From positions 59,967 to 79,966 of the IMG/VR virus record IMGVR_UViG_2645727837_000002: DNA of 20,000 nucleotides. The stretch is one strand, 5' to 3'. Every line of letters begins with the position of its first letter. The first letter of the stretch is position 1. A program made the translations under genes and the position numbers. The notes beneath the pieces were generated by a model, which did no database searches, was not told the origin of the DNA, and worked only from the letters and a program-made list of their open reading frames with translations. Positions 4,130 through 20,000 of the stretch are shown piece after piece. Source of the stretch: an uncultured virus (IMG/VR IMGVR_UViG_2645727837_000002) (taxonomy: Duplodnaviria; Heunggongvirae; Uroviricota; Caudoviricetes).

Positions 4130-7100
4130 ATGATTGTCGAAGAAGAACGCCCTATCCAGAGCATCCGTGGCGCGAGCGGCGGTGGCTCCAGCTCGCCCAC
4201 GCGAACGGACGACAACCTGTTTTCCCGAGACGTCGTCGAGATCGTCCTTGGTCTGTCTCAAGGCCCGATTCGAGGGCTGGTAGACGGCATGAAGACCTTC
4301 TCTGTCGGCGGGACGCCGCTCATGTCGCAGGACGGATCGCTGAACTTCAGTTCGTTTAACCTCGGCGTCAAGCTCGGCACCGCGCACGACTCGCCGGTCA
4401 ACTACGTCCTCGGGGGCGAAAGCTCGAACACCCAGGTCGGCACACGTCTATTTCAAGGGACGTGGGTCAACCGTCAGACCGACCAGTCGCTGAAGGGCGT
4501 TATCGACCAGCTGCAAGTGCGGATGCAGTTCAACGTCCTTTACATCCAGAACAACGACGGCTCCTTCAACAACACGGCGCGCTTCCGAATTCAGTATCGC
4601 CCGGCGTCCAGCTACGCCGCGTGGTCCGAGGTTCAAGGTGGACTGATCAAGGTGACGGGCAAGACCACGAGTGGCTACATGGTCGACTACGCGTGGGACG
4701 TGCCTCGCATCAATGACAACTGGGTGATACGGGTACTGAAGGAGAATCCGGACGCCAGTACGACGGAATTTTGTGACCTTACCTGGGAAAGCTTCCAGAT
4801 GATCACGAAAGGGAACCGCTCGTACAACCAAGTCGCGCTCCTCCATCTGGTCGCCAAGGCGACGAGCCAGTTCAGCTCGATCCCGGACTTCTCCGGCATT
4901 TATGACGGGCTGGAGATCCTGGTTCCGACGAACTACAACGGCGACATGCACTCGTACGACGCGAGCGGCCCGTGGAATGGGACGTTCAAGCTCGCATGGA
5001 CGAACAACCCGGCGTGGATTCTTTACAACCTCATCATGAACCCCACGTGGGGTCTCGCGAAGTATTACCCGTGGATCACGTGCAACCGCTTCGATTTTTA
5101 CGACGCGGGCCGGTGGTGCGACGAGATGGTCCCGGACGGCCGCGGTGGCTGGCAACCGCGCTACACCTTCAACCTCGCTCTGACCGACCAGCAAACCGGT
5201 CTCGACATGCTGAAGTATGTCGCCGGCAGCTTCGGCGCGGTTATCTTCGACGACGCGACTGGGATGGTCCATCTGCGCGTCGACCGGTGGGAAGAACCGA
5301 CCTTGATGTTCACACCCGAGAACGTGACGCCGGAAGGCTTCAGCTACACGTTCACGGACATGTCGACACGATACAACGACTACGAGGTTCAGTTCGTCAA
5401 CCCCGACATCGACTGGAACGTCGACCATCGGCGCGTCCCGAACGAAGAACACATCGCCCTCAACGGCAGCATTCCCTACCAGTTTCAGGCGATCGGCTGC
5501 ACGAACGAGCACGAGGCTGTTCGTCGTGCCACCTACCAGCTGATCACGTCGACCACCGAGTGTGCGACGGTGTCGTTCGTGACCGCGCGTCTCGGCCGCG
5601 TCATCGACCCGTACAAGCCGATCTACGTCGCCGACCCGATCACCGGCTGGTCGTCTGGTGGCCGGATCAAGTCGATCTTCAACAACAAGATCTACCTGCG
5701 AGACCCGATCTACTTTACAGTCAATCAGAACTACAACCTGCGGCTCCAGTCCGTCGACGGGTTGTCGAATTTCGTCGTTACCCCCGGCAAGATCGGGTCC
5801 GTGACCGAGCTGACGATCGTGAGCGGCATCATTCCGCCGAACATCCCGGATCGCACCGTCTTCACGATCGAGGACAACGGTGGGTTCGGGATCGCGAAGC
5901 CCTTCCGTACGATCGCGATCGAGCCGGTGGACAACCAGCCTGACACCTACAAGGTTACGGCTGTCGAAATCAACATCAACAAGCAGGCCGCAGCGGACAA
6001 CTGCGTGCCGATCGGCAGCAAGCAATATTCGTTCAAAAACCCGTTGATCCCTCCCCCGCCGACGAACATGGTCATGGCGTCCGGTACGGAGCAGCTGATC
6101 ATCGGTCAGGACGGCTCGATTCAGGCTCGTATCCTCGTATCCTGGGACCCGCCTGCAAACGCGATCGTTAAGCGCTACGACGTGCAGTGGAAGGAGAGTT
6201 CGCAGTCGACGTGGCTCACCGCGAGCACGACCGGCGAAAGCGTGTTCCTTGGTCCTTGCAAGAGCGGTGTCGACTACGACATCACGGTGTGGGCGATCAG
6301 CACGTTCGATTACCGCAGCTCGCAGCTGTCGACGTGGAACTATCGCTGCGTCGGGAAGGATGAACCGCCGAGCAACGTAACGAACTTCAACGTCATCCGC
6401 CGTCAGAACGACATCCTGCTGAAGTGGGACCCGATCCCCGATCTCGACCGCGCCGGTTACGAGATTCGCCTTGGCACGTCGTGGGAGACTGGAACGGTTC
6501 TCGTGACTGACTATGCAGCAACGCAGTTCGCATGGACGACGGACACAGGCGGGGCATACTCGTTCATGATCCGCGCGATCGATACGAGCCGTAACTTCTC
6601 GCCGATCCCGACGATCCAGACGATCGCACTGTATGGCCCGTCCTCAGTACGTGGCGTCATCGCTGTTCAGTCGTCGAACCGGATCGAGATGAGCTGGAAG
6701 CCGAACCCGGAAGACAACATTCTCGACTACGAGATCCGTGAGGGTGACACGTGGGCGACAGCCGTGTTCGTTGCAAAGACGAAATCTACAAGCTTCGGTC
6801 TTACGGCCGGCGCAGGTGGTACACGCAAGTTTTGGCTGAAGTCAATCGCCGCCCCTGGCATCTACTCGGACAAGGCGACCTTCGTTACTACCGACGTCGC
6901 TCAACTCGAAAACACAAACATCGTGTACGAGTCGGACGAACTGTCGAAAGGCTTCACCGGCATGCGGTACAACATGGTCGTCTACGGAAATTCTTTGCGG
7001 ATGGATGACGGGAAGGCGAAGGCAGAGTACATCTTCAGCGTGTCGCTCCCGACAAGCTTCCGTGCGCAGAATACGCTCTTCATTGGTCTCGACGCGATCG

Positions 7101-7735
7101 TCGACTTCACCATGCGATGGAACGACGCAACGTTCCCGTGGGACGACGCCAGAGCACAGATGCCGTGGGCCGCAGCGGGCGACATCTCGTCGATCAACTA
7201 CCGCGCCGAGATTGCCACGCTCACGGCACTACCGCCTGACGTGCTTTATGCGATCAAGCTCGACAATACGCTCGGATTCTCCGGCCCCGGTGAGGATGGA
7301 TCGGTCACGGAGCAGCAGACGGTTAGCTACCGCGCTGGGAAGTATGGCTCGGGCCTTTTCGTGCAAACTGCGCCGCTCCAACCGGTGCCAACTCACGTGA
7401 CATTCGACGTCAATATCCCGAACGTGTTCTCGACTAGCTTTTGGGTCATTCCGTACGACGACAACGACGATACATGGTCCAGCTTCTGCGGACGGAACGG
7501 TGCGCAAATCACGATCGGCTATCAAGCGTCCACGATGAGTGTCTTTGCGATCGACAACAACGGCAAGAAGATTTCCGTCCCGATCAACCTTGAAGTCGGT
7601 GAACGCTACTTCATCGCTATTTCGCAGGATACGAATACGCGCACGTTGTACGTCGGCCAGGAGGGCGGATCGGTATCCCGTGGAACCCTCGATGTCCAAG
7701 GTATCGGCCAAACCATCAACTACAGTTTGTACTGA
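4130..7735 (+). CDS. Central tail fibre / tip attachment protein, lambda gpJ-like, with FN3-like repeats and a beta-rich C-terminal domain
   Basis: 1201 aa. gpJ-like motifs 'LSQGPIRGL', 'WNGTFKLAWTNNPAWILY', 'WCDEMVPDGRGGWQPRYTFN' and 'AIGCTNEHEAVR'. Three FN3-like segments (VSWDPP..YDVQW; LKWDP..GYEIR; MSWKP..DYEIR). Confidence 0.9.
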   Translation: MIVEEERPIQSIRGASGGGSSSPTRTDDNLFSRDVVEIVLGLSQGPIRGLVDGMKTFSVGGTPLMSQDGSLNFSSFNLGVKLGTAHDSPVNYVLGGESSNTQVGTRLFQGTWVNRQTDQSLKGVIDQLQVRMQFNVLYIQNNDGSFNNTARFRIQYRPASSYAAWSEVQGGLIKVTGKTTSGYMVDYAWDVPRINDNWVIRVLKENPDASTTEFCDLTWESFQMITKGNRSYNQVALLHLVAKATSQFSSIPDFSGIYDGLEILVPTNYNGDMHSYDASGPWNGTFKLAWTNNPAWILYNLIMNPTWGLAKYYPWITCNRFDFYDAGRWCDEMVPDGRGGWQPRYTFNLALTDQQTGLDMLKYVAGSFGAVIFDDATGMVHLRVDRWEEPTLMFTPENVTPEGFSYTFTDMSTRYNDYEVQFVNPDIDWNVDHRRVPNEEHIALNGSIPYQFQAIGCTNEHEAVRRATYQLITSTTECATVSFVTARLGRVIDPYKPIYVADPITGWSSGGRIKSIFNNKIYLRDPIYFTVNQNYNLRLQSVDGLSNFVVTPGKIGSVTELTIVSGIIPPNIPDRTVFTIEDNGGFGIAKPFRTIAIEPVDNQPDTYKVTAVEININKQAAADNCVPIGSKQYSFKNPLIPPPPTNMVMASGTEQLIIGQDGSIQARILVSWDPPANAIVKRYDVQWKESSQSTWLTASTTGESVFLGPCKSGVDYDITVWAISTFDYRSSQLSTWNYRCVGKDEPPSNVTNFNVIRRQNDILLKWDPIPDLDRAGYEIRLGTSWETGTVLVTDYAATQFAWTTDTGGAYSFMIRAIDTSRNFSPIPTIQTIALYGPSSVRGVIAVQSSNRIEMSWKPNPEDNILDYEIREGDTWATAVFVAKTKSTSFGLTAGAGGTRKFWLKSIAAPGIYSDKATFVTTDVAQLENTNIVYESDELSKGFTGMRYNMVVYGNSLRMDDGKAKAEYIFSVSLPTSFRAQNTLFIGLDAIVDFTMRWNDATFPWDDARAQMPWAAAGDISSINYRAEIATLTALPPDVLYAIKLDNTLGFSGPGEDGSVTEQQTVSYRAGKYGSGLFVQTAPLQPVPTHVTFDVNIPNVFSTSFWVIPYDDNDDTWSSFCGRNGAQITIGYQASTMSVFAIDNNGKKISVPINLEVGERYFIAISQDTNTRTLYVGQEGGSVSRGTLDVQGIGQTINYSLY

Positions 7736-7736
7736 T

Positions 7737-8198
7737 ATGGCACACGTAATTTCCGATATCACCATCTCGAAGAAGGTGCTCGATGACGACGGCTTCCTCG
7801 CGCTGCTCACGTCGGACAGCCCGACCGGCTATGCCCCATTTCAACCGTTCGTGCAGGGCGACTACGAGTATCAGACCGCCCTCTTCCGCATCTCGATGAA
7901 CTCGACTTCCGGTGACCGTGGCGTGATCAACAAACTGAGCGTTGTCGTCGACGTTCCCGATATGTTCGACAGCGGCGACAACATCATCGACGGAACGACA
8001 CCGACGCGCATCTTCTTTACGCGTCCATTCCACGTCGCACCGAAGGTGACCCTGACCGTGCAGAGCGCGAGCGACCCATGTACCGCGAAACTTGTCGCCG
8101 GCTCGGTCACGCGCACGCATTTCGACTGTTTCCTTGAAAGGGTCTCTGATAAGGCAAAGATCGACGGCGCTTTGACCTGGGCCGCTCACGCTTACTGA
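7737..8198 (+). CDS. J-associated tail protein (153 aa)
   Basis: ATG 1 nt after the J stop. 'FVQGDYEYQTALFR', 'VDVPDMFDSG', 'IFFTRPFHVAPKVT' and terminal 'WAAHAY' resemble beta-rich tail-tip/fibre adaptor C-termini. Confidence 0.65.
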   Translation: MAHVISDITISKKVLDDDGFLALLTSDSPTGYAPFQPFVQGDYEYQTALFRISMNSTSGDRGVINKLSVVVDVPDMFDSGDNIIDGTTPTRIFFTRPFHVAPKVTLTVQSASDPCTAKLVAGSVTRTHFDCFLERVSDKAKIDGALTWAAHAY

Positions 8199-8227
8199 AA
8201 TCCCTTGGGCGCTCTGGCCAGCGCTCG

Positions 8228-8258
8228 TAAAATTCGTCTTGCTAACGGACACCACCAC
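8228..8258 (+). promoter_or_regulatory. Putative -10-like element (TAAAAT) plus CACCACCAC leader motif before the fibre gene
   Basis: TAAAATTC at 8228-8235 and CACCACCAC at 8250-8258. The same pair recurs before the endolysin gene. No convincing -35 was seen. Confidence 0.35.
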
Positions 8259-8259
8259 G

Positions 8260-9753
8260 ATGCAGAACTACACACAGATTCCAGACAGCCAGCGGGTATC
8301 CGACTCGCTCGCTCCGCTGCTCAACAACGATCTCACGGCGATTTCGCGCAACTCTGGCGACTCCTTTCCGATCACTGGACTCCAGATCGGTATGCCGTAC
8401 CTCAGCACGTCGCAGAACAAGCTCTTCCGGCTCGCGAGCCTGACGCCGGTCACATGGGTGGTCGAAATCGACTACAACCGTTCGATCGCATACCAGGACA
8501 ATCTCGACCAGGTTGCGGCGTCAGCAAACAGCCGTGTCCTCAAAAGCGGCGACAACATGACCGGCCCGCTCACGCTCTCGGGCGACCCATCGCAGGCGTT
8601 GCATGCCGCGCCGAAGCGGTACGTTGACGCGCAGGCGCAGGCGGCGACCACCGCGGCGAACAACCGTGTGCTGCGCTCTGGCGACCAGATGAACGGCCCG
8701 CTCACGCTCTCTGGCGACCCGTCGCTGCCCTACCACGCCGCGACGAAGAATTACGCCGACTACCTCTACAACTCGCTGAACAACGCCAAGCTCGGCCGCA
8801 ACGGCGACACGGTGGCCGAGCTTTACAACAATGGGTGGTTCCGCTCGAACGGTCAAGTTGGCTGGTACAACCAAACCTATGGCGGCGGCATCTATATGAA
8901 CGACGGGGGCTACGTCAAGGTTTACGGTGGCAAGGGATTCGCGACTGATACGCACACTCTCGAACAGGGCACGGGCGGAATCTGGACGTCGCGCTATGGT
9001 TGGCTGGAGAACTGCTTCGCCGGCAAGGGCGCTGAAGACCGCCTAAACTCGGTCGGCACGCTAGACAGCGGCGACGGCTGGCATCCGACGCAGCCGAATC
9101 TCCCGTGGTGGGGTGCCCCCGGTAACGGCGTCATTGCACCAGCGGCCTTCTACCTGAAACGGTCCGGCAGTCAGGTTCAGCTCGTGCGTATGTGGGGAAA
9201 CTGCAACTGCAACTGCGCCTGCACATGCTTCCCAGTCGGCACGCGGATCATGATGGCTGACGGCTCGTGGAAGGCCGTCGAGCATGTTCAGATCGGCGAC
9301 ATGCTCATGACGCCGCTTGGACCTGAAGCGGTGCTCGACATCGAGACACCGCAACTCGGCGACCGCAAGATGATCGGCTTCGAAGACGGCTCCCTCTTCT
9401 GGACCGACGATCACGCCTTTTGGACCCGCCGCGACGGTGCGCAGGCCTTCGGTGTCTACGACAAACAGTCGTGGCTCCGCGGCGTCGAGCTGGGCGTCGT
9501 GAAGGGTTTGCCGAACAACGACGACATTCGACTATTGGACGATCGGTGGGATGAGTTCGCGCACGTGAGTGGATGGAAGCGCAACCGCGTCGTCGCGCAC
9601 ACCCCCCCGGCCGACACCAAGGTTTACCTACCGATCGTCGGCGGATGCCACATGATCATCGCCGAAGGTTACGTCGTCTCGGCTGGCGCAAATGGGTTTG
9701 ACTTCGATTACAACACCTTCGAATGGAAAGGACTCAGCCATGTTGGTGCATAA
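8260..9753 (+). CDS. Tail fibre protein with C-terminal (Cys-x)n motif and Hint (intein-like) domain
   Basis: ATG at 8260 (497 aa; TTG at 8239 is an alternative). Two 'SGDxMxGPLTLSGDP...HAAxKxYxD' fibre repeats. Segment 'GWFRSNGQVGWYNQTYGGGIYM'. NCNCNCACTC at 9199-9228. Hint block A 'CFPVGTRIMMADGSWKAVEHVQIGD' from 9226, block B 'TDDH' at 9403-9414, C-terminal 'VYLPIVGGCHMIIAEGYVVSA' at 9622-9684. Confidence 0.85.
   Translation: MQNYTQIPDSQRVSDSLAPLLNNDLTAISRNSGDSFPITGLQIGMPYLSTSQNKLFRLASLTPVTWVVEIDYNRSIAYQDNLDQVAASANSRVLKSGDNMTGPLTLSGDPSQALHAAPKRYVDAQAQAATTAANNRVLRSGDQMNGPLTLSGDPSLPYHAATKNYADYLYNSLNNAKLGRNGDTVAELYNNGWFRSNGQVGWYNQTYGGGIYMNDGGYVKVYGGKGFATDTHTLEQGTGGIWTSRYGWLENCFAGKGAEDRLNSVGTLDSGDGWHPTQPNLPWWGAPGNGVIAPAAFYLKRSGSQVQLVRMWGNCNCNCACTCFPVGTRIMMADGSWKAVEHVQIGDMLMTPLGPEAVLDIETPQLGDRKMIGFEDGSLFWTDDHAFWTRRDGAQAFGVYDKQSWLRGVELGVVKGLPNNDDIRLLDDRWDEFAHVSGWKRNRVVAHTPPADTKVYLPIVGGCHMIIAEGYVVSAGANGFDFDYNTFEWKGLSHVGA
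8527..8760 (+). repeat. Two intragenic fibre-shaft repeats (34 aa each, 132-bp period)
   Basis: 8527-8628 encodes NSRVLKSGDNMTGPLTLSGDPSQALHAAPKRYVD and 8659-8760 encodes NNRVLRSGDQMNGPLTLSGDPSLPYHAATKNYAD. Confidence 0.9.
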
Positions 9754-10450
9754 GGTACTCATCCCCGACGATCTGACGGATGAGCAGCGCGCCCACGCGT
9801 ACGGCATCGTCACTATCATTCCGACACCTACCGGTTTCACTATGCAGTCGACGGACCTGAGCCTTTACTGGCAGTTCGACTTGAATAAGGTGGAGCACGG
9901 TAATGACGTCCTGCATCTAGTGCGTGCTCGTAACGGGCAGTACGTAGTCGTGTGGGGCAGCGACATTCACGAGTCAAAGGACAGCTTGTCGTCAGCTCTT
10001 CTTCGAAAGAACATCGATTCGTTTATGCCGCTCGTTCTCATCGGTATCAACGAAGAGATGAGCGCCTACACGGCGGTCTTTTTCTGCCACACTGTCGAGC
10101 CGACCAACTCAACCCCAACCGTGGACAATTCGGATGAAAGCGGCGACATGGTCCTAAAGCGGCTCATGCCAGCAATTGCGCCCGTTATCGACCGATGGCA
10201 TGCGAAGCACAAGCTGCTGAAAGACATCAAGACAAACGACGCACTCGCCGCGCTCGAAGCGCAGGTGGATCTGCTCACCGAGCTGCTGTTTTCAATCCTG
10301 CCGGCCGACGCATTTCCATCTGATAAACGACAGAAACTCCTTGACGCTGGTGTACTGAAAATGAAGGATGGGGACCTCGCTTTCAACGACATGGTCGCCT
10401 TCAAGACCACGCTCCGCGCGCGGCAGGCGACGTACCTAGCCACCAGATGA
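9740..10450 (+). CDS. Hypothetical protein (236 aa) between the Hint fibre and the radical SAM gene; possible chaperone or accessory factor
   Basis: ATG at 9740 with AAGGA upstream. It overlaps the fibre stop by 14 nt and has an ATGA overlap with the next gene. Beta-rich N-half and helical C-half ('ALAALEAQVDLLTELL'). Confidence 0.7.
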   Translation: MLVHKVLIPDDLTDEQRAHAYGIVTIIPTPTGFTMQSTDLSLYWQFDLNKVEHGNDVLHLVRARNGQYVVVWGSDIHESKDSLSSALLRKNIDSFMPLVLIGINEEMSAYTAVFFCHTVEPTNSTPTVDNSDESGDMVLKRLMPAIAPVIDRWHAKHKLLKDIKTNDALAALEAQVDLLTELLFSILPADAFPSDKRQKLLDAGVLKMKDGDLAFNDMVAFKTTLRARQATYLATR

Positions 10451-11799
10451 CCACCTTCCGCCTGAAGACGGTCGACGCCTCTGGCGTCGGCCGTGACTTT
10501 TTCTACAACAACCAACGAAGCACCCTCACCGACCACCGCGGTTACGACGTGGTGCCCGAGCGCCCCAGCGAGCCGCGCGCGCAGGCCGTGCCCCCCGGGC
10601 GCAAGGACCGCGTTGTTCGCACGCTGAAGATCCAGCTCGGCCTCTCGTGCAACTACAGCTGCGAATACTGCTCGCAACGATTCGTGCCGCACGCGGACCA
10701 AACCAACCCCGGTGACGTCGACGTGTTCATGTCCCACCTGATGGCAAACTGCTATCTCACGGAGGACGCGACTGTCGAGTTTTGGGGTGGCGAGCCGATG
10801 GTGTACTGGAAGACGCTCAAACCGCTCGCTGAGCGGCTGCGGACGCGTTACCCAGGCATCACCCTTCGGATGATCACGAACGGCTCCCTGATCGACCACA
10901 TGAAGGCCGGGTGGCTCATTTCGATGGGGTTCACGATCGGCATCTCGCACGACGGGCCGGGGCAGAAGGCACGGGGTCAAGACCCCCTCGATAACCCCTT
11001 GACGCGCGAAGCGATCCTCATGCTGTACCAGCGCCTTCGCCCGCTGAACCGGATCTCCTTCAACGCGATGCTGCACAAAGACAGTACGTCGCGGCGCGCG
11101 GTGCGCGACTATTTCATCAAGCTGACGGGCGACACCGACGTGCCGATCGGCGAAGGCATGTTCGTCGACGCGTACGACGAAGGTGGCCGCTCGATGTCGT
11201 TTCACGACGCGCACGAGCACGTCCGCTACCGCGCCCGCGCCTTCGACGAGCTGAAGAGCGGCAACGCGCTCAACTTCGACAGCGTCACGCAGAAAATCGT
11301 CGACTTCGGCGAGTCCGTGGTCACTCGGCGCGAAGCGCGCACGCTCGGCCAGAAGTGCGGCAGCGACCGCGCTGACACCCTGACGATGGACCTGAAGGGC
11401 AACGTGCTGACGTGTCAGAACGTGTCAGCGGTAGCGGTAGCGCCGAACGGCCAGCCTCATCTCGCCGGCAACGTGCAGGACATGGATACGGTCCAGCTCA
11501 AGTCCTCGCGCCACTGGTCGACCCGCGAGCACTGCAACACGTGTCCCGTACTTCAGCTCTGCAAGGGCAGCTGCATGTTCCTCGAAGGCGACTTGTGGGA
11601 TGTCACCTGCGAGAGCGCGTACAGCGACAACGTCGTATTCCTGGCCACGGCTCTCTACGAGCTGACTGGCTGCACCCTTCAGCGTATCGAGCCATTGACT
11701 GGCACGCTGCCTGAGCACCGCCAGATCGTCTTCGGACCTCTGGCCAACAAGCGGACCACCACCCGCAAAATCATCCAGATCAAAACGGAAACGCCATGA
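10447..11799 (+). CDS. Radical SAM enzyme with SPASM domain (peptide/protein maturase-like)
   Basis: CNYSCEYC (CxxxCxxC) at 10648-10671, 'FWGGEP', 'ITNGSL', 'ISHDG'. Seven-Cys SPASM pattern C-x18-C...C-x2-C-x5-C-x3-C-x11-C at 11356-11610. Confidence 0.95.
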   Translation: MTTFRLKTVDASGVGRDFFYNNQRSTLTDHRGYDVVPERPSEPRAQAVPPGRKDRVVRTLKIQLGLSCNYSCEYCSQRFVPHADQTNPGDVDVFMSHLMANCYLTEDATVEFWGGEPMVYWKTLKPLAERLRTRYPGITLRMITNGSLIDHMKAGWLISMGFTIGISHDGPGQKARGQDPLDNPLTREAILMLYQRLRPLNRISFNAMLHKDSTSRRAVRDYFIKLTGDTDVPIGEGMFVDAYDEGGRSMSFHDAHEHVRYRARAFDELKSGNALNFDSVTQKIVDFGESVVTRREARTLGQKCGSDRADTLTMDLKGNVLTCQNVSAVAVAPNGQPHLAGNVQDMDTVQLKSSRHWSTREHCNTCPVLQLCKGSCMFLEGDLWDVTCESAYSDNVVFLATALYELTGCTLQRIEPLTGTLPEHRQIVFGPLANKRTTTRKIIQIKTETP

Positions 11800-12137
11800 A
11801 CGATCAACAAGCCACTCCCCTGATGAACGAAGGACAGATGATGCACCACGTGCTGACGCAACAGCGCAACGAGCTGGCCGATCGCCTCGCTCACGCGAGC
11901 GTCGCAGCTGGTCAAGCCGAACAGCAAGTGCAAGCTCTGGCCGCAGCAAACGCAACTCTGCAATCGGCGCTCGACGAGGCGAACGCGGCACTCGAAGCAA
12001 CGAAGAACGCACTGGTCGCGAGCCAATCTCGCGCAGACCAGCTTCAGAAGAACCTCGACGACGCCAACCGGAAGCTTGCTGCGCATCAGCGACCGATTGA
12101 AGGCGCGTCTACGTCGGTTGATCCGATGCCCGTGTAA
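11796..12137 (+). CDS. Small coiled-coil hypothetical protein (113 aa)
   Basis: ATGA overlap with the rSAM gene. Ala/Gln/Leu heptad pattern. Confidence 0.7.
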   Translation: MNDQQATPLMNEGQMMHHVLTQQRNELADRLAHASVAAGQAEQQVQALAAANATLQSALDEANAALEATKNALVASQSRADQLQKNLDDANRKLAAHQRPIEGASTSVDPMPV

Positions 12138-12150
12138 TCGCACGAAAAGG

Positions 12151-12181
12151 TGCTAAGTGAACCACTTAGGTTCACTTAGCA
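12151..12181 (+). terminator. Perfect 13-bp inverted repeat; probable terminator (possibly bidirectional) or operator
   Basis: TGCTAAGTGAACC-actta-GGTTCACTTAGCA, preceded by AAAAGG and followed by TTTCC, 13 nt after the cassette's last stop. The U-tract is weak. Confidence 0.6.
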
Positions 12182-12223
12182 TTTCCAGTGCAAAACTCTT
12201 TGTATCTGCGTAAACCCCAACCT

Positions 12224-12262
12224 TAAAATTCTCGGCACTCACCACCACCACACGAGTCCGAG
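12224..12262 (+). promoter_or_regulatory. Putative -10-like element and structured leader before the endolysin
   Basis: TAAAATTC at 12224-12231. Stem CTCGG(c)ACTC / GAGTCCGAG encloses an ACCACCACCACAC loop and ends immediately before the ATG at 12263. Confidence 0.4.
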
Positions 12263-12796
12263 ATGTCTATTACGTCCGACCAGCTTCGGAAGATCTGGAC
12301 GCACGCACCGATCGACAGATGCGCCACGTACGCGCCCCTGCTCTCGGACGCGATGACGAAGTTCGAGATCGATACACCGGAAGAGATCGTCGAGTTCCTG
12401 GCTCAGATCTCGCACGAGTCAGCCGAGGGGCGCTACACGCTGGAGATCGCCAGCGGGCAGGCCTACGAGGGACGCAGGGATCTCGGCAACACGCAACCGG
12501 GCGACGGCGTCCGCTACAAGGGCCGCGGCCTGATCCAATGCACCGGTCGGATCAACTACCTGCTGATGGGCATGCTGCTCGATCTCGACCTGATCGCGCA
12601 TCCGGAACTGCTTGAGCAGCCGAAGTATGCCTGCCTCAGCGCCGCTGCATTCTGGTGGAACCACAAGCTCGACGACCTCGCGCTGAAGAAGAACTTCATC
12701 GCGGTCACGAAGGTCATCAACGGCGGCACGAACGGTCTGGCTGATCGTCAAGCGTATCTCGTGCTCGCACGGAAGGTCATTCCTGGAGCCGCCTAA
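12263..12796 (+). CDS. Endolysin, glycoside hydrolase family 19 (chitinase-like lysozyme)
   Basis: 'FLAQISHES', 'DLGNTQPGDGVRYKGRGLIQCTGRINY' and 'TKVINGGTNGLADR'. Confidence 0.92.
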   Translation: MSITSDQLRKIWTHAPIDRCATYAPLLSDAMTKFEIDTPEEIVEFLAQISHESAEGRYTLEIASGQAYEGRRDLGNTQPGDGVRYKGRGLIQCTGRINYLLMGMLLDLDLIAHPELLEQPKYACLSAAAFWWNHKLDDLALKKNFIAVTKVINGGTNGLADRQAYLVLARKVIPGAA

Positions 12797-13209
12797 TGAC
12801 GTCGCGCAACGCAGACTTCTTCGCGCGCCTCGGCTTCACCACGTGGGCGCTTTTGGTCGTCGTGCTTTCGATGTGCCACGCAAGCTCGATCCCGGCCGCG
12901 ACGATGCAACACGGCGGATGGTTCTTCACCCTGCTGCTGCTGGTTGCCGGCGCGCTGCTTCTGGTCGACATCGTGGTCAATGACTTGATGCCCGACCGAT
13001 TCGTTTTCACGTGGGGGTTGAAGTGGCGTCATTGGGTGTACCCGATAGCGTCCTTCTCTTTTGCGTCTCATCTGTTCGTTGCTGAGCAGGCTTACAAGAG
13101 TGTGCAGATAAGCACCCTCGTTCTCTATGGCTCGATGGCTGTGTTTGGCCTGACGCTGAGTTTTCGAAATCTTTTTCACGTACGGGGTCGAGCGTGCAGC
13201 GAACGATAA
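12796..13209 (+). CDS. Multi-pass membrane protein in the lysis cassette (holin/antiholin candidate)
   Basis: TAATG overlap with the endolysin. About 4 hydrophobic segments and a basic C-terminus. Confidence 0.6.
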   Translation: MTSRNADFFARLGFTTWALLVVVLSMCHASSIPAATMQHGGWFFTLLLLVAGALLLVDIVVNDLMPDRFVFTWGLKWRHWVYPIASFSFASHLFVAEQAYKSVQISTLVLYGSMAVFGLTLSFRNLFHVRGRACSER

Positions 13210-13589: not shown

Positions 13590-14101
13590 AGCTGACCGCC
13601 ATTGCCGCGCTCTGCGCCGCTCTCGTGAGCGGCGCTGGCGCTTTCTACTTCACCCGCGACCACTACGTCGCGCTCATAGCCGAGAACGACGATCGGCAGC
13701 AGAAGGCCCTGCGTGCCGCTCAAGCGCGAGCGGACGCGGCAGCGGCCTTCGCTACCACGACGTCGAACCTGCTGGTCACGCAGATCTCGACCGACTACGA
13801 AAGGAAGCTCAACGATGCGAAGTCTCAAGCCGACCGCGATATTGCTGCTGCCCGCGCTGGTGCTCTGCGCCTGCGCGACCGAGCCGCAACCTGTGGCAAT
13901 CAACCGTCCGAAGGTGCAGCTGGCCCCGGTGCCGGCGTATCTGCTGACACCGGAGGAGCCGAACTTTCGCTGCCGGCTACTGAATTTCTTCTCGGCGAAG
14001 CCGGTCGAGCTGACGAAATCGTGCTCAGGCTCAACGCCTGCGAAGCCGTCGTCCGGAGCGACCGAGACGTTCTCGATCGTCTGAACGCGGGTGAGCAATG
14101 A
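13586..14101 (+). CDS. Inner-membrane spanin (Rz-like)
   Basis: N-terminal TM segment, Ala-rich coiled coil, 'AGALRLR', C-terminal 'RADEIVLRLNACEA'. Contains an embedded lipoprotein gene. Confidence 0.85.
   Translation: MKLTAIAALCAALVSGAGAFYFTRDHYVALIAENDDRQQKALRAAQARADAAAAFATTTSNLLVTQISTDYERKLNDAKSQADRDIAAARAGALRLRDRAATCGNQPSEGAAGPGAGVSADTGGAELSLPATEFLLGEAGRADEIVLRLNACEAVVRSDRDVLDRLNAGEQ
13815..14084 (+). CDS. Outer-membrane spanin lipoprotein (Rz1-like), embedded in Rz in the +1 frame
   Basis: ATG at 13815 with AAGGAAG upstream. Signal peptide and lipobox 'MRSLKPTAILLLPALVLCA-C'. Pro-rich mature region. Confidence 0.8.
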   Translation: MRSLKPTAILLLPALVLCACATEPQPVAINRPKVQLAPVPAYLLTPEEPNFRCRLLNFFSAKPVELTKSCSGSTPAKPSSGATETFSIV

Positions 14102-14715
14102 GTGCGGCTTCCCTCCCCCTCGCCCCGACCAACCCGGACGGCCAACCGCTCATCCTGATGATGAGTCCGGTCTACAACAACCTCGGACAGCTGACCCCGA
14201 TGAAACTGCTTTACGGCCGTGGAGCGCCGGCCAACAACGTCGGTAACGACGGCGACTCGTACATCAACCTGGACAACAGCTTCATGTTCGGCCCGAAGAC
14301 GGGCGGCGTTTGGCCGAACGGCTACAGCATCAAGGGCGACAAGGGCGACAAAGGCGATACGGGCGACGTCAACAAGACGCCGATCGCGCGTATGAACGTG
14401 ACCGGCAACGGTCTCGACCTGGACCTGTCGACCGGCATCGGCTGCTTCAACGCGACGATCAACGCCCCGCAGACGGCAATCACGATCAGCAACCCAGCAA
14501 CGGATGCGAACTTCGTGCGCTCGTTCTCGCTCGTGCTCAAGCAGGGCACCGGCTCGAACAAGGTCAACAGCTGGCCGGCAATCATCAAGTGGAACGGTGG
14601 CGTCCCGCCCGTCCTGTCGTACGCGCAAGGCGTGAGCGACGCGTTCATGTTCGAAACCTACGACGGTGGCAAGTCGTACGTCGGCTACTTCGTCGGCAAC
14701 AACATTCCTGCGTAA
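14098..14715 (+). CDS. Small fibre/adaptor-like virion protein with a short collagen-like repeat
   Basis: 'GRGAPANNVGNDGDSYIN...FGPKTGGVW'. KGDKGDKGDTGD at 14332-14367. C-domain 'FSLVLKQG...WPAIIKWNGGVPPVLS....DAFMFETYDGG' is of a type common in phage fibres. Confidence 0.65.
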   Translation: MSAASLPLAPTNPDGQPLILMMSPVYNNLGQLTPMKLLYGRGAPANNVGNDGDSYINLDNSFMFGPKTGGVWPNGYSIKGDKGDKGDTGDVNKTPIARMNVTGNGLDLDLSTGIGCFNATINAPQTAITISNPATDANFVRSFSLVLKQGTGSNKVNSWPAIIKWNGGVPPVLSYAQGVSDAFMFETYDGGKSYVGYFVGNNIPA

Positions 14716-17529
14716 ATGAACCGGCTCTACCTGTCCCGTCAGTCCCTCAACCAGCTCGCCGCGAACGCGAACTCGATGCTCGACGGCCTCATGCAGTTCG
14801 TCGATCGTCACACGAAAGACGACCCGGACACGGGTCAGGACTACATGATCCTCAACAGCAAGAGCGTGCTCTGCAACAACATGCACTACGAGACGGGGAG
14901 CGTCTGGTACACCCCGAACGGCACGGCCACGACCGAAGGTCAGGCCCTGTACATCCTCGGCCTCTACTACGCATGGAAAGGCACCGGCAAGCGCTCCTAC
15001 CTCGACCGCGCCGTGCGTGCGATCGACGCGTACCTGGACCTCTTCTACGCCGGCCAGCCGACGCCGACCACGCCGCAGATCTACCGCTCGAACTGGATCA
15101 TCAACGGCAAGCGCCCGTTTCAGGCCTTCGGCCCGCTGGACCCGAACAACCCGGACAGCCCCGGTGGCAAGGGCATTCAGGTGCAGTTCACGAACGGCAT
15201 GGGCCAGATCCCGACCGGCGACCCGTACAACGGCCAGCTCATCACGCGTCTGTATTCCGTCTACAACGGGAAGCTCTCGTACGACTCCGTGCGCTCGGGC
15301 GTCAATGCTGGTGGCACGGTCTACCCGTTCGCTTCGTACGTGACGTACGACGGCGTGCGCCACAACGCGGATCAGGACGCGATCGACCCGAACGGCGACC
15401 CACCGGGGACGATCCGCCTCGTCGACACGACGTTCACCGGCACGGCGCTGGTGAACTACGCGAACATGACCGGCCCGATGATCGGCCGCAACGAGCCGTT
15501 CGATGTCTGGCCGATCTGGATGGCGTTGTCTCCCGACCAGTGGGGCAACTCGATCGACTCGGAGCAGTGGTTCGCCGAGGCCTGCTACTTGATGTTCCAG
15601 GAGACTGGCAACCCGCGCTACTTCAACGCGTTCAACGCCTCAATCTACACCATCAACGACGCGACCGACCTTCAAGCCGACGGCTTCTATTTCCGCCAGG
15701 ACACGAAGGCCGCTGACCCGTTCAACGTGGGCATCGCGTACGACTGGGAATACCTCGGCGACGCGATGGCGACGGTCAACCGCGACAGCAGCGGCTACAT
15801 CCACGTGTCGAAGACCGCTGAATCGAACGTGAACAAGGAGAGCACGGTCGCGCTCGAACAGATCGCCGTCTACACGCGCATCGACTCCAGCAAGACGGCG
15901 ATGGTCAACACCATCGGCATCAACACGCCGAAGGCTCGCATCGAGTTCCTGACGCGGATGAAGACCGACCTCCTGAGCGACGGCCGGCAGTATCGCTATG
16001 CCCTGCCCTCGAACGGTAGCGTGACGCCGACGCAGATGGTGGTCCCGTTCGGCCAGATGGTCACGGCGACGCAATCGGACGGCCAGCAGCACGCCATGCT
16101 CGACGGTTCGAGCTTCGTGCCGTACGGCAACGCCGGCTACACCACCACGTACGAGGGCGGCATCCTCGGCGACGCTGGCCGCGCTGACTGGATCGGCACG
16201 GTCAACATCAATGACAGCACTTCCGGCGTCGTCGCCGGCTTCTGGCTCGCAACACCGACCACCCGCGCCCTCACATCGTTGACGTACCGCGTGAACAGCG
16301 GCGAGATCTGGTTGAAGGTCACGGACGCGCTTGGCAATAAGTATCAGCGCGTGCTGCCCTCCGGTGGTTGGACCACGCTGCCGCTGAGCTGGTCCGACTT
16401 CACGCTCGTGCCGAATCAGGCGGCAGGCACGCCGGCCGCACCGACGCCGAATGGTGCGATGACGCAGATCGAATTCATCACGAACAACGGCCAAGGTGGT
16501 TCGGTCTCGACGTACTGCTGGGGCGAGATCCCGCAGAAGCTCGTGTCGGTCAACGACTACTCGACCGAGTGGTTCATCCATGTGAAATGCCAGCCGGCGA
16601 TGGAGATGGCCGTGGGAGACGTGTATGCGTCCAACCCTGCCCCGCTCGCGCTGAAATACTCACCTGGAGTGCTTCCCTTCACGACGAAGTATTCGGTTTC
16701 CCGCGCACGGAAGGATTACTGGCGAGGAACACCGTACACCGGCTACCAGTATGGGCCGATGTGGGTACTCTCGGGCAAGACCCAGTATTACACCAACTGC
16801 ATCGCCTTCTACTACGACGCGCAGGAAGCATACGCGAAGAAGATCGGTGTCATGGGTCCGGTTGCGCCGCTCTATGTGTGGCCGCGCTACGACCAGCTCG
16901 ATCAAGGCCCCATCGACACGTTCGCATGGGGTACGGACAAACCGTACCCGTGGGCGGGGTACAACGCGCGCGCGTTCTTCGCAGGTTGCCGGATGTGGCA
17001 GTTGCTCGTGCAGCAGGGTTTCCCTGTCGATACCCGGCTCATCACATTCTGCGAGCGCTATGCGAAGTATCTGGCTGATTTCCAGGATGCAAACGACAAC
17101 CTGACGCCGACTGAGTTTCCGCCTGACAAGCCGGCGTTCAACGATGACTACGACCACACCGGCCATATGACGGCGCTGTACATGGCGGGTGCAGTCTGTA
17201 TGAAGTTCGCCGGTTCGAAGTCCACCTACGTCGATCGCGTGATCAACGGCTGTATGGTCGAATTCACGCGCACGCAGGTGATCGAAGACCCGACCGGCCC
17301 CTACTCCGACATGAGCGGTGCGTACTCAAGCTGGTCGCATGGTCACTACTTCTACGGATTTTGGGCGGGCGAGATCATGCGCGCGCTAGGACTCTTGATG
17401 ATGTGGAATCTGCGCAATCAGCAAGGTGCAGGCATCCAAATCGAGGAATCCAACATCCTGCTTGAAAACGCGTCCGGACATATCGCCGCAGAAGACGGCA
17501 CTTTGATCAAAACAGAGACTTCCCTATGA
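14716..17529 (+). CDS. Large (937 aa) putative virion-associated glycosidase, GH8-like with inserted beta domains
   Basis: 'TTEGQALYILG' (from 14929) resembles the GH8 SEGQxY catalytic-Glu motif. 'GNSIDSEQWFA' (from 15544) resembles the GH8 NxAxDxD region. Helical aromatic-rich ends and a beta-rich middle. Confidence 0.55.
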   Translation: MNRLYLSRQSLNQLAANANSMLDGLMQFVDRHTKDDPDTGQDYMILNSKSVLCNNMHYETGSVWYTPNGTATTEGQALYILGLYYAWKGTGKRSYLDRAVRAIDAYLDLFYAGQPTPTTPQIYRSNWIINGKRPFQAFGPLDPNNPDSPGGKGIQVQFTNGMGQIPTGDPYNGQLITRLYSVYNGKLSYDSVRSGVNAGGTVYPFASYVTYDGVRHNADQDAIDPNGDPPGTIRLVDTTFTGTALVNYANMTGPMIGRNEPFDVWPIWMALSPDQWGNSIDSEQWFAEACYLMFQETGNPRYFNAFNASIYTINDATDLQADGFYFRQDTKAADPFNVGIAYDWEYLGDAMATVNRDSSGYIHVSKTAESNVNKESTVALEQIAVYTRIDSSKTAMVNTIGINTPKARIEFLTRMKTDLLSDGRQYRYALPSNGSVTPTQMVVPFGQMVTATQSDGQQHAMLDGSSFVPYGNAGYTTTYEGGILGDAGRADWIGTVNINDSTSGVVAGFWLATPTTRALTSLTYRVNSGEIWLKVTDALGNKYQRVLPSGGWTTLPLSWSDFTLVPNQAAGTPAAPTPNGAMTQIEFITNNGQGGSVSTYCWGEIPQKLVSVNDYSTEWFIHVKCQPAMEMAVGDVYASNPAPLALKYSPGVLPFTTKYSVSRARKDYWRGTPYTGYQYGPMWVLSGKTQYYTNCIAFYYDAQEAYAKKIGVMGPVAPLYVWPRYDQLDQGPIDTFAWGTDKPYPWAGYNARAFFAGCRMWQLLVQQGFPVDTRLITFCERYAKYLADFQDANDNLTPTEFPPDKPAFNDDYDHTGHMTALYMAGAVCMKFAGSKSTYVDRVINGCMVEFTRTQVIEDPTGPYSDMSGAYSSWSHGHYFYGFWAGEIMRALGLLMMWNLRNQQGAGIQIEESNILLENASGHIAAEDGTLIKTETSL

Positions 17530-18644
17530 GCGACATGAAAATCTCGGAGTTCAACGAACTCCAGAATCCAGTTGATGACGCAATGCTCGCGGGAGCATAT
17601 GGCGGCAACAACTTCAAGTTGAAGCTTTCGACACTGCGCGCGTGGTTCGGAATCGTGACGCAGAAGGCGGCAGGCTTCATGAGCGCGGACGACAAGACCA
17701 AGCTCGACGGTATTGCATCACAAGCGACAAAGAACAGCGCGGACGCGACGCTTCTAAACCGGCAGAACCACACTGGCCAGCAAGACGCGAGCACCGTGGC
17801 CGGTCTCGCGAAAGTGGCAACGAGCGGCAGCTACAAGGATCTGAAAGACGCCCCGCCCACTGGCATCCCGGTCGCAACAAGCACCCAGCTTGGTGGCGTG
17901 AAACTCGGCCCTGGCCAGACAACCGATGGCGATGGCACATTGCGGATCTCGCGCTTCGCCGAGCGTGCAGCATTTGATCCGGTGATGAAGGCCGGCACGG
18001 TCGCGCTCTCGAACAACAACCTGACCGCTACCGTCCCTGGCGGGAAGCAAGTCGTAGCGCTCGGAACGACCGGCATGAAAGCGGGAAAGTGGTACTTCGA
18101 AGCCACATTCGTCTCGGGCACATCCAGCGGGAACGCCGCGGTCGGCGTGTGCCCGCGTAACGAGGCGATGGACGCTCAGGTCGGATATGACGACGGTCAG
18201 GGGACGATCGGGAAATTCCAGTCGAGCGGGAACGTGTATCGAGACGGTGGCACGAACTCCGGGGCGGGCGCGGCATTCAACGTCGCAGGGGACACAGTCG
18301 GCGTAGCGATCGACGCGACGTCGCGCACGGCATGGTTCAGAGTCAACGGCGGCGTCTGGAACGGTAGCGCTTCGAACGACCCGGCAACTGGCGTGGGTGG
18401 TTACCCCATCGGCGGCACGTTCCCGCTCTTCCCCGCCATCTGCTCCGATGTTGCGTCCGTGTGGACCGTAAACTTCACTGGGCCATTCGCAGCAGCTTCC
18501 CCGACTGGATTCATCCCGTGGTCGCAAGGCAGCTTGCAGCTCTCCCTCGGGGATTGCGCAGACGTCGACCTGACCGGTGCAAAGGCTGGCGACACGCTGA
18601 AGCTCTCAACTGCCGGTGTCTGGAAGCCATCCTCGGTCGCGTAA
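17526..18644 (+). CDS. Fibre-like protein with SPRY/concanavalin-like domain
   Basis: N-terminal 'MSDMKISEF'. Fibre motifs 'AGFMSADDKTKLDGIA', 'LLNRQNHTGQQ', 'LAKVATSGSYKDL', 'PVATSTQLGGVK'. SPRY-like 'GKWYFE...VGV...GDTVGVAIDA...WFRVNG'. Confidence 0.7.
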   Translation: MSDMKISEFNELQNPVDDAMLAGAYGGNNFKLKLSTLRAWFGIVTQKAAGFMSADDKTKLDGIASQATKNSADATLLNRQNHTGQQDASTVAGLAKVATSGSYKDLKDAPPTGIPVATSTQLGGVKLGPGQTTDGDGTLRISRFAERAAFDPVMKAGTVALSNNNLTATVPGGKQVVALGTTGMKAGKWYFEATFVSGTSSGNAAVGVCPRNEAMDAQVGYDDGQGTIGKFQSSGNVYRDGGTNSGAGAAFNVAGDTVGVAIDATSRTAWFRVNGGVWNGSASNDPATGVGGYPIGGTFPLFPAICSDVASVWTVNFTGPFAAASPTGFIPWSQGSLQLSLGDCADVDLTGAKAGDTLKLSTAGVWKPSSVA

Positions 18645-19223: not shown

Positions 19224-20000
19224 ATGAAGATCGCCACCTGGAACGTCAACTCCCTGAACGTGCGCAAGCAGCACGTGCTCGACTGGCTCGCGCAGAGCGA
19301 CGTCGACGTGCTGTGCCTTCAGGAGCTCAAGATCCCCGACGAGAAGTTTCCGCGCGAAGCGCTCGAAGCGGCCGGCTACCGCAGCTGGTTCGCGGGCCAG
19401 AAAACCTACAACGGCGTCGCGATCCTCGCGCGCGCGAGCCTGCCGTTCGACGAGACGGATATCGTTCGCAACATCCCCGGCTTCGAGGACGCGCAGCAGC
19501 GCCTGATCGCCGCGACGATCGACGGCGTGCGGATCGTGTCCGCGTACTTCCCGAACGGCCAGGCGCTCGACTCGGACAAGTTCGTCTACAAGATGCAATG
19601 GCTCGACGCGCTGCAGGCATGGCTGAAGGACGAGCTGCAACGCTACCCGAAGCTCGCGCTGCTCGGCGACTACAACATCGCGCCCGAAGATCGCGACGTG
19701 CACGATCCGGCGAAATGGGAAGGCCAGAATCTGGTGTCGCCGCAGGAGCGCGCGCATTTCGCGCAGCTCGTCGCGCTCGGCTTCGTCGACGCGTTCCGAC
19801 GCTTCGAGCAACCCGAGAAGACCTTCACGTGGTGGGATTACCGGATGCTCGCGTTCCGCCGCAACGCCGGGCTGCGGATCGATCACATCCTGCTGTCGCC
19901 GGCGCTCGCCGAAACCTGCACGAGCTGCACCGTCGACCGCGTGCCGCGCACGTGGGAGCAGCCGTCCGACCACACGCCCGTCGTCGCGCAGCTCGGCTGA
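19224..20000 (+). CDS. xthA: Exodeoxyribonuclease III (host gene)
   Basis: 'MKIATWNVNS', 'LCLQELK', 'GQKTYNGVAI', 'YFPNG', 'GDYNIAP', 'FTWWDYR', 'GLRIDHIL', 'SDHTPV'. Complete 258 aa, with visibly more GC-biased codon usage than the phage genes. Confidence 0.97.
   Translation: MKIATWNVNSLNVRKQHVLDWLAQSDVDVLCLQELKIPDEKFPREALEAAGYRSWFAGQKTYNGVAILARASLPFDETDIVRNIPGFEDAQQRLIAATIDGVRIVSAYFPNGQALDSDKFVYKMQWLDALQAWLKDELQRYPKLALLGDYNIAPEDRDVHDPAKWEGQNLVSPQERAHFAQLVALGFVDAFRRFEQPEKTFTWWDYRMLAFRRNAGLRIDHILLSPALAETCTSCTVDRVPRTWEQPSDHTPVVAQLG

What the first reader, a model, noticed from the sequence alone, without database searches (positions are those of the whole stretch)
9226..9753. Hint domain at the fibre C-terminus looks cleavage-only, in the place of an intramolecular chaperone
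Seen: Cys1 (CFPVGT, 9226) and block B TDDH (9403-9414) are intact, but the terminal block reads 'GYVVSA' instead of 'G..VHN'. About 22 more residues follow, and no homing endonuclease is present. Known: Cys1 plus TxxH drive the N-S acyl shift, while the terminal Asn is needed for splicing. Hedgehog-type Hints lacking it transfer the N-fragment to a nucleophile. Many fibres instead use an autocleaving peptidase S74 chaperone. Inference: cleavage between Thr and Cys gives a fibre of about 322 aa ending ...WGNCNCNCACT as a thioester. This could be hydrolysed, attacked by neighbouring thiols, or ligated to another molecule or subunit.
Basis: partly seen in the sequence, partly recalled or inferred. 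Interest (0 to 1): 0.8.

Follow-up and report, generated by a model that had tools for sequence, protein, structure and literature searches.

The report
Self-removing Hint cap on phage fibre
A prophage tail fibre ends in an intein-type (Hint) domain that has kept the residues for cutting at its front end and lost those for splicing, so it likely cuts itself off as a disposable cap and would expose a cysteine-rich fibre tip that a neighbouring radical SAM enzyme is predicted to modify.

Summary
Observation confirmed. Residues 323-497 of the 497-aa fibre (8260-9753) model as a Hint domain (pLDDT 94; Z 18.2 to BIL2). Cys323, Thr382 and His385 are intact. Ser474-Ala475-Gly476 fill the His, Asn and +1 slots, so standard splicing is excluded. 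The domain belongs to a wide, always C-terminal Hint clade: in 113 sequences Cys1 is in 113, the block-B His in 112, terminal His-Asn in 0. It caps many unrelated proteins, often tail proteins, most without cysteines. In one locus it alternates with peptidase S74 on three paralogous collagen fibres, so the positional analogy holds; a chaperone role is untested. A 47%-identical fibre ends at the Asn-Cys ladder with a stop codon, as do ladder proteins in 20 of 43 radical SAM loci. This favours cleavage plus hydrolysis over ligation. The radical SAM gene follows the ladder, not the Hint (19 of 19 ladder rows, about five lineages, against 0 of 9 ladder-free rows). No cleavage was shown experimentally. 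This scan reported the same system before in other genomes; ten literature searches found no description. New variant of a known kind.

The parts
8260..9753 (+). Tail fibre precursor, 497 aa (54.3 kDa): anchor and shaft repeats, distal body, Asn-Cys ladder, Hint cap
   Evidence: PHROG tail-fibre hit phrog_16641 E 2e-10; lies after the gpJ-like tip protein; masses
8260..9225 (+). Predicted mature fibre, residues 1-322 (34.8 kDa), ending GNCNCNCACT
   Evidence: inferred from the Hint junction; 47% identical over 278 aa to Hint-less P0172, which ends NCNCNCNCANN-stop
9199..9225 (+). Asn-Cys ladder NCNCNCACT (Cys315, 317, 319, 321; Thr322 is the -1 residue)
   Evidence: four Cys and Thr invariant in 17 of 17 homologues; dN 0 in 15 of 15 pairs
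9226..9684 (+). Hint core, residues 323-475, with a family-specific insert (about 391-434)
   Evidence: insert largely gapped in the His-Asn sister repeats
9226..9228 (+). Cys323 = Cys1 nucleophile
   Evidence: 113 of 113 family rows
9403..9414 (+). Block B T382-D-D-H385
   Evidence: Ser/Thr 112 of 113, His 112 of 113
9628..9630 (+). Leu457 at the likely block F4 slot (no Asp, Asn or Cys)
   Evidence: family Leu 60 of 113, variable; sisters Asn 94%, Asp 6%
9679..9687 (+). Ser474-Ala475-Gly476 in the slots of penultimate His, terminal Asn and +1 nucleophile
   Evidence: His-Asn in 0 of 113 family rows, in all 62 sister repeats (which were selected for it)
9685..9750 (+). 22-residue C-terminal extension with conserved D483, Y484, W489; modelled as folded
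   Evidence: D 97, Y 101, W 98 of 113; pLDDT 93-95 to Hint residue 170
9737..10450 (+). 237-aa protein of unknown family; travels with ladder and radical SAM, also without a Hint
   Evidence: no family at cut-off; homologues in Hint-less ladder loci L174 and L177
10447..11799 (+). Radical SAM/SPASM enzyme, 450 aa (CxxxCxxC at 68/72/75; eight Cys from 304 to 409)
   Evidence: phrog_1802 E 4e-59; SPASM TIGR04085 E 1.6e-7, best equivalog PapB E 4e-13, far below cut-off

Best explanation
The last 175 residues of this tail fibre are a Hint domain that lacks the splicing residues and likely acts as a self-removing cap: Cys323 would attack the Thr322-Cys323 bond, and the thioester would likely be hydrolysed, leaving a 322-residue fibre ending in a free Asn-Cys ladder. 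Shown here: fold, residue pattern, conservation, position, and natural Hint-less counterparts. Inferred: (1) the N-to-S shift, from Cys1 plus TxxH; (2) release by water, because relatives make the same end with a stop codon and the unrelated clients share no acceptor; (3) before it leaves, the cap probably helps the tip fold or shields it, working like peptidase S74 in place and timing but by different chemistry; (4) in this phage the radical SAM/SPASM enzyme probably cross-links the ladder (Cys to Asn or Ala thioethers), before or after the cut.
For: Hint fold. Cys1 113/113, block B His 112/113, His-Asn 0/113. The -1 residue is Thr, Ser or Cys in 106 of 112 proteins with unrelated bodies, as expected if the junction is an active site. 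All 112 carry the domain within 55 residues of the C-terminus. Hint-less fibres P0172 and P0173 end at the ladder; a related tip occurs with a Hint in P0049 (E 3e-7). 20 of 43 radical SAM loci have ladders ending within 3 residues of a stop, 12 of 43 have ladder plus Hint. L088 has collagen paralogues capped Hint, S74, Hint. Radical SAM in 19 of 19 ladder rows with >=2.9 kb downstream, 0 of 9 ladder-free rows. A Hedgehog Hint without its sterol region still cleaves by hydrolysis (PMC4695875, passages); type B BILs lack block G and cleave without splicing (PMC4031507, passages).
Against: No experiment shows cleavage in any member. The usual block F4 Asp is absent (Leu457), which could slow or stop thioester turnover. 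The conserved insert and extension suggest a function beyond cutting, such as an acceptor site like the Hedgehog sterol region. Hint-less fibres show that the cap is not needed for folding in every lineage. The 19 ladder rows are about five independent lineages (13 are JWF-like). 4 of 43 radical SAM loci with about 5 kb upstream show no ladder, and 7 more are cut too short to tell. Some ladder-free rows have little downstream DNA (957 and 1900 bases).
Confidence: 0.5

Rival explanations
1. Ligation: the thioester is captured by an amine or alcohol (a lysine or N-terminus of another subunit, or a small molecule), as in Hedgehog cholesterolysis or BIL2 isopeptide formation; the insert and extension would form the acceptor site.
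For: Best structural match is BIL2, which forms an isopeptide bond (PMC8616854, passages). Insert and extension are conserved over unrelated clients.
Against: Stop-terminated counterparts cannot be ligated this way. The F4 slot is variable and mostly hydrophobic; no conserved Lys, Cys or Ser in the extension. BIL2 itself keeps its terminal Asn (entry title N143A).
Confidence: 0.17
2. The Hint is not cut in vivo and stays as a structural or receptor-binding tip domain.
For: No cleavage data; F4 Asp missing; a 400-base patch inside the Hint was exchanged against a close relative (72-79% DNA identity against 86-98% around it), as is common for receptor-binding parts.
Against: Cys1 and the block B His are the two invariant columns among 102 sequences, while surface positions vary; small -1 residue bias.
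Confidence: 0.13
3. Passenger: a degenerate intein-like element that removes itself and gives no benefit.
For: Hint-less homologues exist; the ladder label is scattered on the Hint tree (18 changes, shuffled mean 21.2, minimum 16), so the domain moves between clients; the clade sits among tandem His-Asn repeats, and 3 of 112 proteins carry it as the last unit of such an array.
Against: No homing endonuclease; at a C-terminus one stop codon would remove it, yet dN/dS is 0.05-0.25 and it is kept at the same position in 112 of 112 proteins.
Confidence: 0.1
4. Thiol capture: a ladder cysteine attacks the thioester and gives a C-terminal thiolactone or an inter-subunit thioester.
For: Four Cys lie within eight residues of the junction.
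Against: 45 of 112 family proteins have no Cys in the last 20 residues and only 29 have three or more; such esters would hydrolyse (established chemistry), so this is at most an intermediate.
Confidence: 0.08
5. A true splicing mini-intein that joins the 22-residue tail to the fibre.
For: Intein fold and blocks A and B.
Against: No His, no Asn/Gln/Asp, no +1 Cys/Ser/Thr, no F4 Cys.
Confidence: 0.02

Closest known systems
Type B bacterial intein-like (BIL) domains (as summarised in PMC4031507; passages read)
   Same: Hint fold, no endonuclease, no intein block G, cleavage uncoupled from splicing
   Different: Here a distinct clade with a ~45-residue insert and a folded ~20-residue extension, fixed at the C-terminus of largely phage tail proteins; Pfam Hint_2 was not hit by the query
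BIL2 of the Tetrahymena BUBL1 locus (PDB 6y75, 6tmm; PMC8616854 passages)
   Same: Best structural match, Z 18.2, rmsd 1.9, 135 residues; Cys1 and block B His
   Different: BIL2 keeps Asn143 and ligates to lysine; 19% identity; no ubiquitin-like partners here
Hedgehog autoprocessing domain (PDB 1at0; PMC4695875 passages)
   Same: C-terminal Hint, N-terminal cleavage only, extra segment after the Hint core; Z 14.1
   Different: No long hydrophobic sterol-recognition region; the counterpart of Asp303 was not mapped; no known acceptor
Peptidase S74 / intramolecular chaperone autocleavage domain (PF13884; PMC8326128 and 10.1101/2024.10.28.620165, passages)
   Same: C-terminal, self-removing, on tail fibres; interchangeable slot in L088; fibres sharing this shaft repeat end in S74 (11 of 120) or Hint (17 of 120)
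   Different: Unrelated fold and chemistry (Ser-Lys dyad, trimer-dependent, coiled coil); trimerisation and chaperone activity of the Hint cap untested
NxxcB/NxxcA (PMC9389541, passages) and CrpC/CrpA (PMC13692751, abstract)
   Same: SPASM radical SAM enzymes that make Cys thioethers, to Asn in NxxcA and on a Cys-rich protein in CrpA
   Different: Here the candidate substrate is a virion fibre tip with CxC spacing; the enzyme scores far below all RiPP maturase cut-offs; activity untested

Membership tests
Hint superfamily | Horseshoe beta Hint fold | tested here: met
Hint superfamily | N-terminal Cys/Ser and block B TxxH | tested here: met
   Cys323, T382, H385
Hint superfamily | N-to-S acyl shift and cleavage activity | not testable with these tools
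   needs biochemistry
Class 1 intein / type A BIL | Terminal His-Asn (or Gln/Asp) | tested here: not met
   Ser474-Ala475; 0 of 113 family rows
Class 1 intein | +1 Cys/Ser/Thr | tested here: not met
   Gly476; Cys/Ser/Thr in 13 of 113 rows
Class 3 intein | Block F4 Cys | tested here: not met
   Leu457; Cys in 1 of 113
Type B BIL | No similarity to intein block G | tested here: met
Type B BIL | Match to the family's own sequence profile | tested here: inconclusive
   Query has no Hint_2 (PF13403) hit at E<=0.1; one relative hits it at E 1.3e-5, below cut-off; that Hint_2 models type B BILs is recalled
Hedgehog-type Hint | Sterol-recognition region after the Hint | tested here: not met
   only 22, largely polar and aromatic residues follow
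Hedgehog-type Hint | Asp303-type residue for transesterification | not tested
   no residue-level structural alignment was returned
Peptidase S74 chaperone | PF13884 match, Ser-Lys dyad, C-terminal coiled coil | tested here: not met
Peptidase S74 chaperone (works-like) | C-terminal position on a fibre, exchangeable with S74 | tested here: met
   L088 paralogues
Peptidase S74 chaperone (works-like) | Trimerises and is needed for folding of the upstream fibre | not testable with these tools
   no complex model was obtained; monomer model of the whole fibre is uninformative (pLDDT <50 for 74-321)
Radical SAM/SPASM thioether maturase | CxxxCxxC plus SPASM domain beside a Cys-rich substrate | tested here: met
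Radical SAM/SPASM thioether maturase | Thioether formation on the substrate | not testable with these tools
   needs mass spectrometry

The most novel reading that the evidence does not exclude
Phages use a widespread, undescribed Hint clade as a second kind of self-removing intramolecular chaperone, convergent with peptidase S74, on many unrelated tail proteins; in this lineage its departure unmasks an Asn-Cys tip that a phage radical SAM enzyme staples with thioethers, a RiPP-like maturation of a virion protein.
Probability: 0.3. Interest if true: 0.85.

Novelty: new variant of a known kind. Interest (0 to 1): 0.62.

Why it matters
Tail-fibre maturation is usually explained by S74 or separate chaperones. 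A Hint-based cap would be a second, chemically different way to the same end, present on many tail proteins that are now annotated only as 'Hint domain' or hypothetical. It predicts that annotated fibre lengths overstate the virion protein by about 20 kDa. A natural N-terminal-cleavage-only Hint that accepts unrelated N-terminal partners would also be of use for making protein thioesters. Cultured phages (JWF, 2-1, PSTNGR1) make each step testable.

Tried and rejected
Family libraries name no full-length match for the domain: Pfam partial and below cut-off, NCBIfam none, PHROGs one weak unknown. ESM Atlas gave only generic Hint clusters and nothing for the 237-aa ORF. The whole-protein monomer model was unusable for the fibre body, and the body has no solved relative. 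No complex prediction was obtained, so the oligomer state of the cap is open. The wide VIA-align search was not run; the Foldseek and second-look results were clear. No Rfam family in 7500-13000. A locus search with P0172 returned no Hint-less full-length locus (8 loci), so the neighbours of P0172 and P0173 are unknown. The NCBI name 'shufflon PilV adhesin' on P0004 was rejected: it rests on a 57-residue Shufflon_N match inside a phage tail operon. 'The Hint serves the radical SAM system' was rejected as a general rule (0 of 9 ladder-free Hint rows have the enzyme). One row (L099, 77 bits, internal repeat with a long tail) was dropped from the 31 rows of that table, and two were set aside: L005 (ladder, 376 bases downstream) and L089 (Cys-rich, not Asn-Cys, 1.8 kb downstream, no enzyme). 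Literature: ten searches found no paper on a Hint cap on tail proteins or on radical SAM action on them; hits read for 'Hint' concerned terminase or helicase inteins. The JWF genome paper (doi 10.1007/s00705-017-3347-8) is not held and may contain virion protein data that bear on cleavage; most subscription papers and all supplements were not seen.

Full report
Setting. The window is the right end of a 79,966-base provirus record with one copy of the domain. Close relatives are prophages of Burkholderia paludis and B. territorii and the Achromobacter siphophages JWF and 2-1. Gene order is gpJ-like tip protein (4130-7735), H-lectin-like protein, the fibre (8260-9753), a 237-aa unknown, a radical SAM/SPASM enzyme (10447-11799), a coiled-coil protein and the lysis genes. 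The order fibre, unknown, enzyme holds in 10 of the 11 full-length loci (the eleventh contig ends inside the unknown gene) and in JWF.

The observation. Sequence libraries give only partial Hint matches, but a model built from 27 sequences has mean pLDDT 94.2 and matches BIL2, inteins and Hedgehog (best Z 18.2, rmsd 1.9, 135 residues). Model residues 1-153 span whole inteins end to end, and 1-155 matches BIL2 1-145, whose entry title names Asn143. Ala475 therefore sits in the terminal Asn slot, Ser474 in the His slot and Gly476 in the +1 slot. In the viral model library the two best hits are an uncultured-phage protein (TM 0.92) and the PSTNGR1 protein (TM 0.86).

The family. A profile of the domain found 306 representatives at E<=1e-30; only the best 150 were returned. 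112 of these 150 match the profile to position 160 or beyond; the other 38 are His-Asn-type repeats or fragments. In the 112 plus the query: Cys1 113, block B Ser/Thr 112, block B His 112, His-Asn 0, extension Asp 97, Tyr 101, Trp 98. The likely F4 slot is variable (Leu 60 of 113), where the sister repeats have Asn 94% and Asp 6%. The -1 residue is Thr 47, Ser 43, Cys 16 of 112 (sisters: 46 of 62 Ser/Thr/Cys). All 112 end within 55 residues of the match. Against 31 of the 62 sister repeats the family forms one clade (FastTree support 0.996). Among six close genes the domain shows dN/dS 0.05-0.25. The pattern is what PMC4031507 (passages) describes for type B BILs and what PMC4695875 (passages) describes for a Hedgehog Hint without its sterol region: front-end chemistry only. 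Cleavage itself remains inferred.

What it caps. 85 of the 112 proteins (the best-ranked of the 99 with at least 80 residues before the Hint) were scanned against PHROGs: 28 hit tail families, 3 other virion families, 16 only unknown or Hint-driven families, 38 nothing. Clients include long fibres, collagen fibres, a gpJ fragment, a tape-measure-like protein and small proteins of 260-430 aa. Some are not obviously phage proteins (a PilV-like protein P0104; a zinc-ribbon protein in L096). Only 29 of 112 have three or more Cys in the 20 residues before the junction and 45 have none. The cap is thus a general module and not a part of the cysteine system.

In place of S74? Positionally, yes. L088 holds three tandem collagen fibres with the same N-terminus, ending in Hint, S74 and Hint. 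Of the 120 listed proteins (of 242 hits) that share this fibre's proximal region, 17 end in the Hint, 11 in S74 and 92 in neither. None of the 112 family proteins hits an S74 profile built here from ten sequences. Against a simple replacement: in PSTNGR1, L031 and L033 an S74 fibre is followed by a separate small Hint-capped protein, and the L031 S74 fibre shares the anchor of our fibre (E 2e-14). S74 works as a trimer through a coiled coil and a Ser-Lys dyad (PMC8326128, passages); the Hint model has neither. A chaperone role is therefore plausible and untested.

Fate of the thioester. Natural controls favour a plain free end. P0172 and P0173 (305 aa; P0172 from Cupriavidus) end at the ladder with a stop; P0172 is 47% identical to our fibre over 278 residues. 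Among 43 loci of the radical SAM enzyme, 20 have a ladder protein ending within three residues of a stop, 12 have ladder plus Hint (three of these also carry stop-terminated ladder proteins; one, L168, uses a different Hint type), and 11 show no ladder, 7 of them with under 1.9 kb of upstream DNA. Many of the 20 are close relatives. Ligation stays possible: the nearest structure, BIL2, makes isopeptide bonds (PMC8616854, passages), and the conserved insert and extension need an explanation.

The radical SAM link. Of 30 Hint-family rows in fetched loci, 19 have a ladder and at least 2.9 kb downstream, and all 19 have the enzyme (about five lineages; 13 rows are JWF-like); 9 have no ladder and none has it; two could not be classed. 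The enzyme and the 237-aa gene thus follow the ladder, with or without a Hint. Precedents for the chemistry are NxxcB (Cys to Asn beta-thioether; PMC9389541, passages) and CrpC (thioethers on a protein; PMC13692751, abstract); both leads came from earlier notes of this scan. The modification is inferred from co-occurrence only.

Verdict. A real, conserved, splicing-incompetent Hint that most likely removes itself from the fibre tip (cleavage about 0.85; the full account with hydrolysis and a useful role before release about 0.5). It is a Hint-superfamily member, not an intein, Hedgehog domain or S74; it works most like a type B BIL in chemistry and like S74 in position. Ten searches found no description; the JWF paper could not be read. 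Earlier reports of this scan describe the same system in at least 16 genomes and the same cleavage-only reading in two; these are repeats of the idea and were not counted as evidence.

Noticed in passing
window 9260-9660 against L001: DNA identity drops to 72-79% inside the Hint while the rest of 8260-11800 is 86-98% identical: a recombination patch confined to the cap.
   Followed up: partly
L088 2637-6957: Three tandem collagen fibres capped Hint, S74, Hint, followed by two stand-alone Hint-like ORFs of about 232 aa that begin with Met-Phe or Met-Ser-Phe and lack Cys1.
   Followed up: partly
L195 3518-4838 and L197 3630-4980: A Hint-capped ladder protein is followed by two small ladder proteins that end at a stop codon, then the radical SAM gene.
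   Followed up: partly
L205 (Ralstonia phage RP12) 966-1184: An unannotated 73-codon open frame containing NCNCNCAC five residues before its stop lies upstream of three radical SAM genes.
   Followed up: no
L204 (Ralstonia phage RSP15) 3422-4294: Side tail fibre gp48 ends NTNCQCGN-stop, three genes before the radical SAM homologue: a short ladder in a cultured phage.
   Followed up: no
P0027, P0050, P0092; P0020-P0025: Tandem arrays of His-Asn Hint repeats occur in large proteins; in three proteins the extension-type Hint is the last unit of the array.
   Followed up: partly
L169, L173, L194, about 4-5 kb upstream of the enzyme: Radical SAM homologues without a detected ladder are preceded by clusters of small enzyme-like ORFs (His-rich, desaturase- or dioxygenase-like by eye; not scanned).
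   Followed up: no
window 14098-18644: A second set of tail-type genes lies after the lysis genes: a 937-aa phrog_2871 tail protein and a SPRY-domain protein.
   Followed up: no
window 19224-20000: Host exodeoxyribonuclease III gene at the prophage edge; its 90% cluster holds B. thailandensis, B. ubonensis, B. humptydooensis, B. oklahomensis and B. pseudomallei proteins.
   Followed up: partly
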